Source: Minisyncoccota bacterium
GTDB lineage: Bacteria; Patescibacteriota; Minisyncoccia; SW-4-49-11
Assembly (NCBI GenBank): GCA_018609785.1
Contig: JAHEOE010000071.1
Location: forward strand, 1 to 29,828
Direction of reading: 5' to 3'
Length of the DNA: 29,828 nt
Shown: positions 17,480 through 17,646 of the stretch, piece after piece
Layout: every line of letters begins with the position of its first letter
Position numbering within the stretch: the first letter of the stretch is position 1
Program-made: the position numbers and the translations under genes
Notes under the pieces: generated by a model
The model's input: only the letters and a program-made list of their open reading frames with translations
Databases searched by the model: none
What the model was told of the DNA's origin: nothing

Positions 17480-17646
17480 TAGAAGTCATCTCAAAATTCA
17501 CATAACCAAAATGTATCGAGGCTAACGGATCATATGAAGGAACCCGGGTAGGGAGTGGCTAGGCATGTGCACTGAATATGAGCCGTTAGCCGAGATCATA
17601 TTCGTATATTATAGTAATCGAAAGAATATTTTTGAGATGGCCTCTA
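17480..17646 (+). mobile_element. MITE-like TIR-hairpin element, divergent copy with inverted core
   Basis: TAgaagtcatctcaaaa...gaaagaatatttttgagatggcctcTA; internal stem ggctaacggatcatat/atatgagccgttagcc; loop homologous to the reverse complement of the copy-1 loop. Confidence 0.75.

What the first reader, a model, noticed from the sequence alone, without database searches (positions are those of the whole stretch)
17480..17646. Element core is inverted relative to its own ends (flip between internal inverted repeats)
Seen: the asymmetric flanks are oriented like copies 1 and 2 (left CTCAAAATT, right GAAAGAATATTTTTGAGATG). The loop gaaggaacccgggtagggagtggctaggcatgtgcactga instead aligns to the reverse complement of the copy-1 loop (gaacgaattttgggtatggtaggccgtaggcattaaatgccagtga; ~29 matches by hand). 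The left arm keeps the same 22-nt length with 13/22 identity but remains largely paired (cgtat/atacg becomes catat/atatg). Inference: the internal stem arms can act as inversion boundaries, so the element may exist in two states, or two old subfamilies exist with opposite cores.
Basis: partly seen in the sequence, partly recalled or inferred. Interest (0 to 1): 0.72.

Follow-up and report, generated by a model that had tools for sequence, protein, structure and literature searches.

The report
Flipped hairpin core in MITE family
A small, mobile-looking repeat in a tiny uncultured bacterial genome carries a long DNA hairpin whose middle has flipped end-for-end several times during the family's history, most likely as a passive by-product of DNA copying and not as a genetic switch.

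Summary
Window 17480-17646 is one copy ("type 3a") of a ~170-bp, TA-flanked, terminal-inverted-repeat element family. The 883-kb assembly (a Parcubacteria MAG) holds about 64 type-1 and about 20 type-3 hairpin cores. The copy's ends are colinear with the main type 1. Its 40-nt loop matches only the reverse complement of the type-1 loop (shuffle z 3.2; other type-3 subtypes 3.9-5.4; forward orientation z 1.1 or less). The sister species' family supplies an intermediate loop: 32/41 identical to the reverse complement, z 5.8, 0/5000 shuffles.

This copy is not a fresh flip. Its orientation is shared by the other three type-3a copies, all but one of the remaining type-3 copies, and all nine full copies in the congener, so it marks an old subfamily.

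Flipping does recur. Seven of 63 classifiable type-1 copies and one type-3c copy have the whole hairpin inverted between unchanged ends. The tree needs 6 changes, well-supported branches force at least 4, and the AU test rejects a single origin (p 1e-7). An arm bulge always travels with the loop, which places the exchange in the outer 16-17 bp of the arms.

No serine invertase was found, and no same-locus polymorphism could be tested. The best reading is passive template-switch or recombination inversion between the arms, a known kind of event. The scan has already noted similar flips in other genomes.

The parts
17480..17646 (+). The flagged element, type 3a: TA + left inverted-repeat end, hairpin, right end + TA
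   Evidence: three near-identical copies elsewhere in the genome
17480..17513 (+). Left end (TAGAAGTCATCTCAAAATT...) and linker of the flagged copy
   Evidence: end motif TAGAR-NN-CATCTCAAAA is conserved from 7 bases before the CATCTC
17514..17535 (+). Hairpin arm A (22 nt) of the flagged copy
17536..17575 (+). 40-nt loop, homologous to the reverse complement of the type-1 loop ('flop' state)
17576..17596 (+). Hairpin arm B (21 nt) of the flagged copy
17597..17646 (+). Right linker and right end (CGAAAGAATATTTTTGAGATGGCCTCTA), colinear with the type-1 right end
   Evidence: (81% over 52 nt, same strand), family D2
14868..15037 (+). Type-1 copy, majority 'flip' state; arm A 14903-14924, loop 14925-14970, arm B 14971-14991
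   Evidence: (hairpin -23.6 kcal/mol, z -8.1)
18841..19008 (+). Type-1 copy, 'flip' state, inserted between def and fmt; loop 18898-18943; two compensated arm changes
   Evidence: the def-fmt spacer is only 9 nt in relative L080
25323..25498 (-). Type-1 copy on the minus strand, 'flip' state; loop 25396-25441

Best explanation
The flagged stretch is one copy of a non-coding, MITE-like repeat family. Each element is about 155-175 bp, has TA at both ends and terminal inverted repeats GAR-NN-CATCTCAAAA, and carries a central hairpin with 21-22-bp arms and a 40-46-nt loop. The flagged copy's hairpin lies in the opposite orientation to that of the main subfamily because, long ago, the hairpin was inverted between its own arms in one lineage of the family, and both forms then multiplied.

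The same inversion has happened again at least five times in single copies. The most likely mechanism is passive. During replication the nascent strand switches template within one arm, copies the loop from the complementary strand, and switches back in the other arm. Alternatively, a short recombination or conversion tract is anchored in the two arms. Either route leaves the ends untouched and turns the loop, together with the inner part of the arms, around.

Shown: the two orientations, their recurrence, and the position of the exchange in the outer 16-17 bp of the arms. Inferred: the template-switch mechanism, and the absence of any function for the flip.
For: The orientation difference is statistically supported and bridged by an intermediate loop from the sister species.

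The census found 64 type-1 cores: 56 flip, 7 flop, 1 unclear. One type-3c copy, C86:18611-18800, has the exact reverse complement of the 3c loop between unchanged flanks.

Pairwise alignments of flop copies with their nearest flip relatives show near-identical flanks and arms. Only the loop is reverse-complemented, and the single-base arm bulge moves to the other arm. C16:3619-3891 and C57:5835-6130 are the same two-hairpin composite and differ in the orientation of one hairpin.

The ML tree of 53 complete copies needs 6 changes, starred branches force at least 4, and the AU test rejects one clade of flops at p 1e-7 (an earlier tree gave 5 and 3).

There is no serine recombinase, and only one tyrosine recombinase in the whole assembly.

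Exact arm identity is only 16-17 bp, shorter than the smallest k-mer usual in short-read assemblers (21, my own knowledge). A de Bruijn-graph mis-join is therefore unlikely (direct reading).

Template switching between inverted-repeat arms is documented to invert loops or spacers, recurrently and reversibly (PMC8794818; PMC8604942).
Against: No reads or second assemblies exist for this organism in the collections searched, so the mechanism and timing are inferred from fixed copies only.

Published template-switch inversions mostly involve loops of 2-8 nt, whereas these loops are 40-46 nt.

Covariation between core and flanks is weak. Spearman correlation is 0.10 for flop-flip pairs and 0.15 for flip-flip pairs. 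Only 1 of 7 flop copies is individually significant at p<0.05 (a second is at p 0.053), although all 7 lean the expected way. Exchange of cores between copies therefore cannot be excluded.

The core is much more uniform than the linkers, and a purely passive picture does not explain that.
Confidence: 0.68

Rival explanations
1. Ectopic gene conversion. Because the arms are near-palindromic, a copy can pair antiparallel with any of the roughly 60 other copies. A conversion tract anchored in both arms would then paste in a loop in the opposite orientation. The inversion would be an exchange between copies and not an in-place event.
For: There are many near-identical cores, with 93-95% mean pairwise identity, while the linkers are only 69-75%. 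Flank-core covariation is weak. In the C57/C16 composite pair the flanks are near-identical but the loops differ at about 4 positions.
Against: All 7 flop copies have cores at least as similar to their flank-neighbours as to the background, and flop-flip pairs correlate about as well as flip-flip pairs. The subtype markers of loop and flanks agree in C10 (B-type) and in C3. The 16-22 bp of arm homology is marginal for RecA-type conversion (own knowledge).
Confidence: 0.15
2. The hairpin core is a separate small mobile or modular unit that is inserted into, or shuffled between, carrier ends in either orientation. On this view the repeats are nested or modular, and nothing inverts in place.
For: The core is more conserved than the linkers. 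Type-3 and type-1 units occur fused tail-to-tail in several places. In the congener some copies have the left half replaced by another module.
Against: The junction between linker and arm is at the same base in every copy, and no target duplication surrounds the core. No solo cores without ends were seen in the census. The type-3c flip has both 3c-specific flanks.
Confidence: 0.08
3. An active, reversible site-specific switch (an inverton). A recombinase would flip the loop at individual loci, giving two functional states.
For: Inverted repeats bound the segment. Both states exist in the family. One tyrosine recombinase is encoded at C18:1120-1671.
Against: There is no serine invertase. The single tyrosine recombinase fits the usual housekeeping Xer type (inference, not tested). 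The 40-46-bp spacer is very short for synapsis of duplex sites (own knowledge). The states are inherited within subfamilies: all nine congener copies, and all but one of about 20 type-3 copies, share one state. Orientation shows no bias relative to transcription.
Confidence: 0.05
4. An assembly or library artefact. On this view the flop copies are mis-joins at a repeated palindrome.
For: The assembly is fragmented into 129 contigs, many contigs end inside elements, and strain mixture is present.
Against: Exact arm identity is only 16-17 bp. Flop copies carry their own private substitutions and full unique flanks on both sides. The flagged type-3a arrangement is repeated on four contigs, and the congener's independent assembly has the same state.
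Confidence: 0.04

Closest known systems
Template-switch mutations that invert hairpin loops or inverted-repeat spacers (Monttinen and Loytynoja 2022, PMC8794818; Abraham and Hazkani-Covo 2021, PMC8604942)
   Same: The inversion is bounded exactly by the two arms of an inverted repeat. Loop length is kept and the flanks are untouched. The event is recurrent and reversible on a phylogeny and needs no dedicated enzyme.
   Different: Published cases are mostly 2-8-nt loops in rRNA, microRNA or yeast coding DNA. Here the loops are 40-46 nt, the arms 21-22 bp, and the substrate is a multi-copy mobile-looking repeat. One genome therefore records many events.
Hairpin-associated small inversions in chloroplast non-coding DNA (Kelchner and Wendel 1996; own knowledge, paper not read here)
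   Same: Tens-of-bases loops flip between arms of about 10-25 bp. The flips are homoplasious among close relatives and are regarded as neutral.
   Different: Those are in single-copy organelle spacers, not a dispersed bacterial repeat family.
Bacterial MITEs such as Correia/NEMIS and ERIC (review: Delihas 2011, PMC3184786, listed, not read in detail)
   Same: They are small, non-coding, intergenic and high in copy number, with terminal inverted repeats and a TA at each end. They can lie inside operons.
   Different: No autonomous insertion sequence with matching ends was found. The large conserved internal hairpin and its flipping are not part of the usual description of those families, as far as I know.
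REPIN / REP doublets mobilised by RAYT transposases (PMC3337134, listed)
   Same: Two inverted arms plus a spacer form a long hairpin, in many intergenic copies.
   Different: Those elements have no outer terminal inverted repeats. The arms here lack the GTAG/CGTC head. The only Y1 transposase gene sits next to a TnpB-like gene on C54 (IS200/IS605-like pair), not as a solitary gene.
Earlier findings of this scan in other genomes (e1-4712561, e1-5191461, e1-3769532, e1-3747493)
   Same: Those are MITE-like repeats whose hairpin loop occurs in both orientations between fixed ends, read as passive inversions.
   Different: They come from different organisms and unrelated sequences. They were not checked here.

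Membership tests
Bacterial MITE (non-autonomous TIR element) | Terminal inverted repeats | tested here: met
   Both ends read TAGAR-NN-CATCTCAAAA, with 91-100% conservation over 84 ends of 42 complete elements. There are 325 end motifs in the genome against 91 in a shuffled genome.
Bacterial MITE (non-autonomous TIR element) | Small, non-coding, many dispersed intergenic copies | tested here: met
   Elements are about 155-175 bp. There are 64 type-1 cores and about 20 type-3 cores in 883 kb. They lie between genes in tandem, convergent and divergent contexts.
Bacterial MITE (non-autonomous TIR element) | Target-site duplication | tested here: inconclusive
   TA (often YTAG) is invariant at both ends. 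Without an alignable empty site it cannot be separated from the repeat itself.
Bacterial MITE (non-autonomous TIR element) | Presence/absence polymorphism (empty sites) | tested here: inconclusive
   The def-fmt spacer is 9 nt in the syntenic relative L080 and 265 nt with the element in the window. The relative is only 62% identical in Fmt, so the site cannot be aligned base for base.
Bacterial MITE (non-autonomous TIR element) | Autonomous insertion sequence with the same ends | tested here: not met
   There is no DDE_3 gene. The one DDE_Tnp_1 ORF on C16 has no CATCTCAAAA ends nearby. The assembly is only 88% complete, so absence is not shown.
Hairpin-loop / inverted-repeat spacer inversion (template-switch type) | Inverted segment bounded by the two arms, loop length kept, flanks unchanged | tested here: met
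   This is seen in the pairwise alignments of five type-1 flop/flip pairs and in the type-3c pair.
Hairpin-loop / inverted-repeat spacer inversion (template-switch type) | Recurrent, independent events on the phylogeny | tested here: met
   The tree needs 6 changes, at least 4 are forced by well-supported branches, and AU p is 1e-7 against one origin.
Hairpin-loop / inverted-repeat spacer inversion (template-switch type) | Arises by polymerase template switching during replication | not testable with these tools
   This needs an experimental inversion assay or mutation-accumulation data.
Site-specific invertible switch (inverton) | Dedicated invertase (serine or tyrosine) encoded nearby | tested here: not met
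   PF00239 gives no match. PF00589 gives one match, at C18:1120-1671. A type-1 copy lies about 120 bp downstream of that match, but none of the flop loci is on C18.
Site-specific invertible switch (inverton) | Both orientations at one locus within a population | not testable with these tools
   No reads are available. There are no other records of this organism. The duplicated strain contigs carry no element.
REPIN / RAYT system | REP arms with a GTAG or CGTC head, no outer TIRs, solitary RAYT gene | tested here: not met
   The arms begin TATGAAGG or TATCGAGG. Outer TIRs are present. The Y1_Tnp gene is paired with a TnpB-like gene on C54.

The most novel reading that the evidence does not exclude
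The hairpin would be a functional part of the element. Its core is 93-95% identical among copies while the adjoining linkers are only about 70-75%, and pairing is kept by many two-sided changes between subfamilies. Flipping would be frequent enough that many of the roughly 80 loci are heterogeneous within a population. Because several copies sit inside operons (for example def-fmt), each flip would swap a C-rich for a G-rich 46-nt loop in the transcript, giving a genome-wide set of stochastic two-state RNA or DNA structures in a reduced Parcubacteria genome.
Probability: 0.08. Interest if true: 0.65.

Novelty: new member of a known kind. Interest (0 to 1): 0.38.

Why it matters
The finding gives a clean natural record of at least five independent inversions of an unusually long (40-46 nt) hairpin loop within one small genome. 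That is useful for calibrating how often inverted repeats flip their spacers.

It is also a warning for repeat classification and alignment. Copies that look diverged in the middle are simply reverse-complemented there.

The family itself makes up about 1.5% of a genome under 1 Mb, from a lineage usually thought to be poor in mobile DNA. The finding does not reveal a new mechanism or a regulated switch.

Tried and rejected
- A scan of JGI metagenome contigs for the type-1 loop gave 0 hits.
- A GTDB genome scan for the right end found only the congener (Parcubacteria bacterium SW_4_49_11) plus chance hits.
- An exact-protein look-up of Fmt and a homologue search found no other record closer than 62% identity. 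Same-locus comparison between strains or samples was therefore impossible.
- Duplicated strain contigs exist within the MAG (C27/C127, C66/C128, C72/C129, C77/C78), but none carries an element.
- Rfam gave no match to either element type, even at E up to 1.
- Orientation relative to transcription shows no bias. In tandem gene contexts 12 copies are anti and 9 are same, and the flops are split.
- Compensatory arm changes within young type-1 copies are rare: 2 compensated against 38 one-sided. Arms and loop vary at the same rate, 2.4% and 2.5%. There is thus no evidence of selection on pairing among recent copies. Between subfamilies, 12 of 16 predicted pairs show two-sided changes, but that alignment is partly imperfect and by mistake includes two reverse-complement rows.
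- Search for an autonomous partner found no DDE_3, the single DDE_Tnp_1 lacks matching ends, and the rve match is below cut-off.
- The congener showed no flipped copy among 9 full copies.
- Polarity, meaning which state is ancestral, could not be settled. The congener's family is closest to type 3c and is not an outgroup to the type-1/type-3 split.

Full report
**What is there.** The window is contig C71 of an 883-kb, 129-contig, 46% GC assembly that is 88% complete. Its only close relative in the genome collection is the MAG "Parcubacteria group bacterium SW_4_49_11".

The flagged stretch 17480-17646 is one copy of a dispersed intergenic repeat. In the main form, "type 1", the element reads as follows:
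- TA, then the left end GAG-NN-CATCTCAAAATTATT and a 13-nt linker;
- arm A, TATGAAGGCGACAGAGACGTAT (22 nt, with one extra A);
- a 46-nt loop;
- arm B, ATACGCTCTGTCGCCTTCATA (21 nt);
- a linker of about 25 nt, then the right end AATATTTTTGAGATG-NN-CTC and TA.

The window holds three type-1 copies (14868-15037, 18841-19008, and 25323-25498 on the minus strand) plus the flagged copy. The flagged copy belongs to a diverged form, "type 3a", with different arms and a 40-nt loop. Both hairpins fold far better than shuffles as single-stranded DNA: -23.6 kcal/mol with z -8.1, and -17 kcal/mol with z -4.6. No Rfam family matches either form.

**Checking the observation.** The right flank of the flagged copy is colinear with the type-1 right flank, 81% over 52 nt on the same strand with no reverse hit.

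The 40-nt loop aligns to the reverse complement of the type-1 loop with 31 identities. That gives z 3.2 against dinucleotide shuffles (17 of 2000 reach it), while the forward orientation gives z 1.1. The two other type-3 loop subtypes give z 5.4 and 3.9 in the reverse-complement orientation only.

The congener carries about nine full copies of a type-3-like element. Its loop is an intermediate. It shares 33-35 of 41 positions with the type-3 loops and 32 of 41 with the reverse complement of the type-1 loop (z 5.8, 0 of 5000 shuffles; forward z 0.7).

The same arrangement occurs in three further type-3a copies on other contigs, which argues against a local misassembly.

**Is this copy "flipped"?** Relative to the type-1 majority, yes. 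But all type-3 copies recovered by a profile search, about 20 in all, have the same orientation with one exception. So do all nine full copies in the congener. It is not a recent event at this locus. Which state is ancestral cannot be decided, because the congener's family is nearest to type 3c and is not an outgroup.

**Recurrent flipping.** A profile census found 64 type-1 cores: 56 in the majority "flip" state, 7 in the "flop" state, and one unclassifiable. The seven flops are C3:1710, C10:5137, C45:1679, C57:5868, C69:4081, C87:12969 and C106:16751.

Each of the five aligned type-1 flop copies was compared with a close flip relative. The flanks and arms are near-identical, the loop is exactly reverse-complemented, and the extra arm base has moved to the other arm. 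The exchange therefore lies in the outer 16-17 bp of the arms, the only long perfectly paired part.

C16:3619-3891 and C57:5835-6130 are the same two-hairpin composite and differ in the orientation of the type-1 hairpin.

One type-3c copy, C86:18611-18800, has the reverse complement of the 3c loop between 3c-specific flanks.

An ML tree of 53 complete type-1 copies used cores oriented by loop and flanks oriented by themselves. It needs 6 state changes, and well-supported branches force at least 4. The AU test rejects a single flop clade at p 1e-7. An earlier tree with five flops gave 5 changes and at least 3 forced.

**Mechanism.** The assembly has no serine recombinase and one tyrosine recombinase. 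The orientation of core or flanks shows no relation to the direction of neighbouring genes.

Template switching between the arms of an inverted repeat is known to invert loops and spacers, repeatedly and reversibly, without any dedicated enzyme (PMC8794818; PMC8604942). Chloroplast hairpin inversions are a further precedent (own knowledge). The anatomy here fits. The boundaries lie inside the arms, loop length is kept, the inner arm asymmetry is carried along, and the events are scattered across lineages. I therefore read the flips as passive replication or recombination accidents that are then inherited and, in one old case, amplified.

This step is inferred, not shown. Ectopic conversion between antiparallel-paired copies is the main alternative, because flank-core covariation is weak. 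All seven flops lean the expected way, but only one is individually significant at p<0.05, and Spearman correlation is 0.10 against 0.15 among ordinary copies.

A de Bruijn-graph artefact is unlikely, because the exact arm repeat (16-17 bp) is shorter than the smallest usual k-mer (21, own knowledge). Flop copies also carry private substitutions and unique flanks.

**What the element is.** It has the features of a bacterial MITE. It has terminal inverted repeats and an invariant TA at each end. It is small, has no coding capacity and is high in copy number, making up about 1.5% of the genome. It lies between genes, including inside the def-fmt pair, where a syntenic relative has only a 9-nt spacer.

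Two defining features could not be met. No insertion sequence with matching ends was found. The target duplication cannot be separated from the repeat without an alignable empty site.

It is not a REPIN. The arms lack a GTAG or CGTC head, outer inverted repeats are present, and the only Y1 transposase is part of an IS200/IS605-like pair.

**Unexplained.** The type-1 hairpin core is much more uniform among copies (93-95% mean pairwise identity) than the linkers beside it (69-75%, a figure that includes a few host bases). Among young copies, arm changes are almost never compensated, 2 against 38. Between subfamilies the arms differ at many positions yet stay complementary (that alignment is partly imperfect). 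This could reflect a role of the hairpin in mobilisation, homogenisation of cores between copies, or arm correction by the same template switching. I could not separate these possibilities.

**Limits.** There are no reads, and no second sample or strain carrying any element locus. Whether a locus is heterogeneous today is therefore unknown.

**Verdict.** The phenomenon is a known kind of event, hairpin-bounded inversion, in a new and well-populated setting. This scan has already recorded similar cases in other genomes. Interest is moderate.

Noticed in passing
G000 contigs C16:3619-3891, C57:5835-6130, C56:4347-4617, C69:4045-4350, C102:1265-1509, C96:1190-1470: Type-3 and type-1 elements repeatedly sit tail-to-tail and share a fused inner end. 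These are two-hairpin composites bounded by two 'left' ends, which suggests a larger composite unit or preferential insertion next to or into one another.
   Followed up: partly
all type-1 copies, e.g. window 14868-15037: The hairpin core (arms plus loop) is 93-95% identical between copies, while the linkers between the terminal repeats and the hairpin are only about 70-75% identical and fall into discrete variants. This is unusual for a MITE, where the interior is normally the least conserved part.
   Followed up: partly
window 18775-19039 vs L080:6992-7001: A type-1 element lies between def and fmt. In a syntenic relative (JGI sample 3300046057, Fmt 62% identical) the two genes are 9 nt apart, so the element probably sits inside an operon transcript.
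   Followed up: partly
G000 C54:336-1876: An IS200/IS605-like pair is present: a Y1 transposase (148-aa frame) and a divergently oriented TnpB-like gene (392-aa frame). It is one of the few transposase-family matches in the assembly, beside the DDE_Tnp_1 ORF on C16 and a sub-threshold rve match on C104.
   Followed up: no
G000 C27/C127, C66/C128, C72/C129, C77/C78: Kilobase-scale duplicated contigs at 90-98.5% identity show that the MAG mixes at least two strains or close species in places.
   Followed up: no
window 17363-17460, 17658-17818, 22198-22514, 14798-14869: A second, unrelated set of intergenic repeat modules surrounds the flagged element. It includes purine-rich heptamer tracts, GATATACNGT units and a 72-nt module at 17747-17818 that is 88% identical to 22198-22269. 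These modules recur in inverted order near greA (D4, I3, I4, I7-I10).
   Followed up: no
L002, L006 (congener contigs PXOY01 C44, C38): In the sister species some copies keep only the right half of the element. The left half is replaced by a different structured module, which suggests modular exchange within the family.
   Followed up: no
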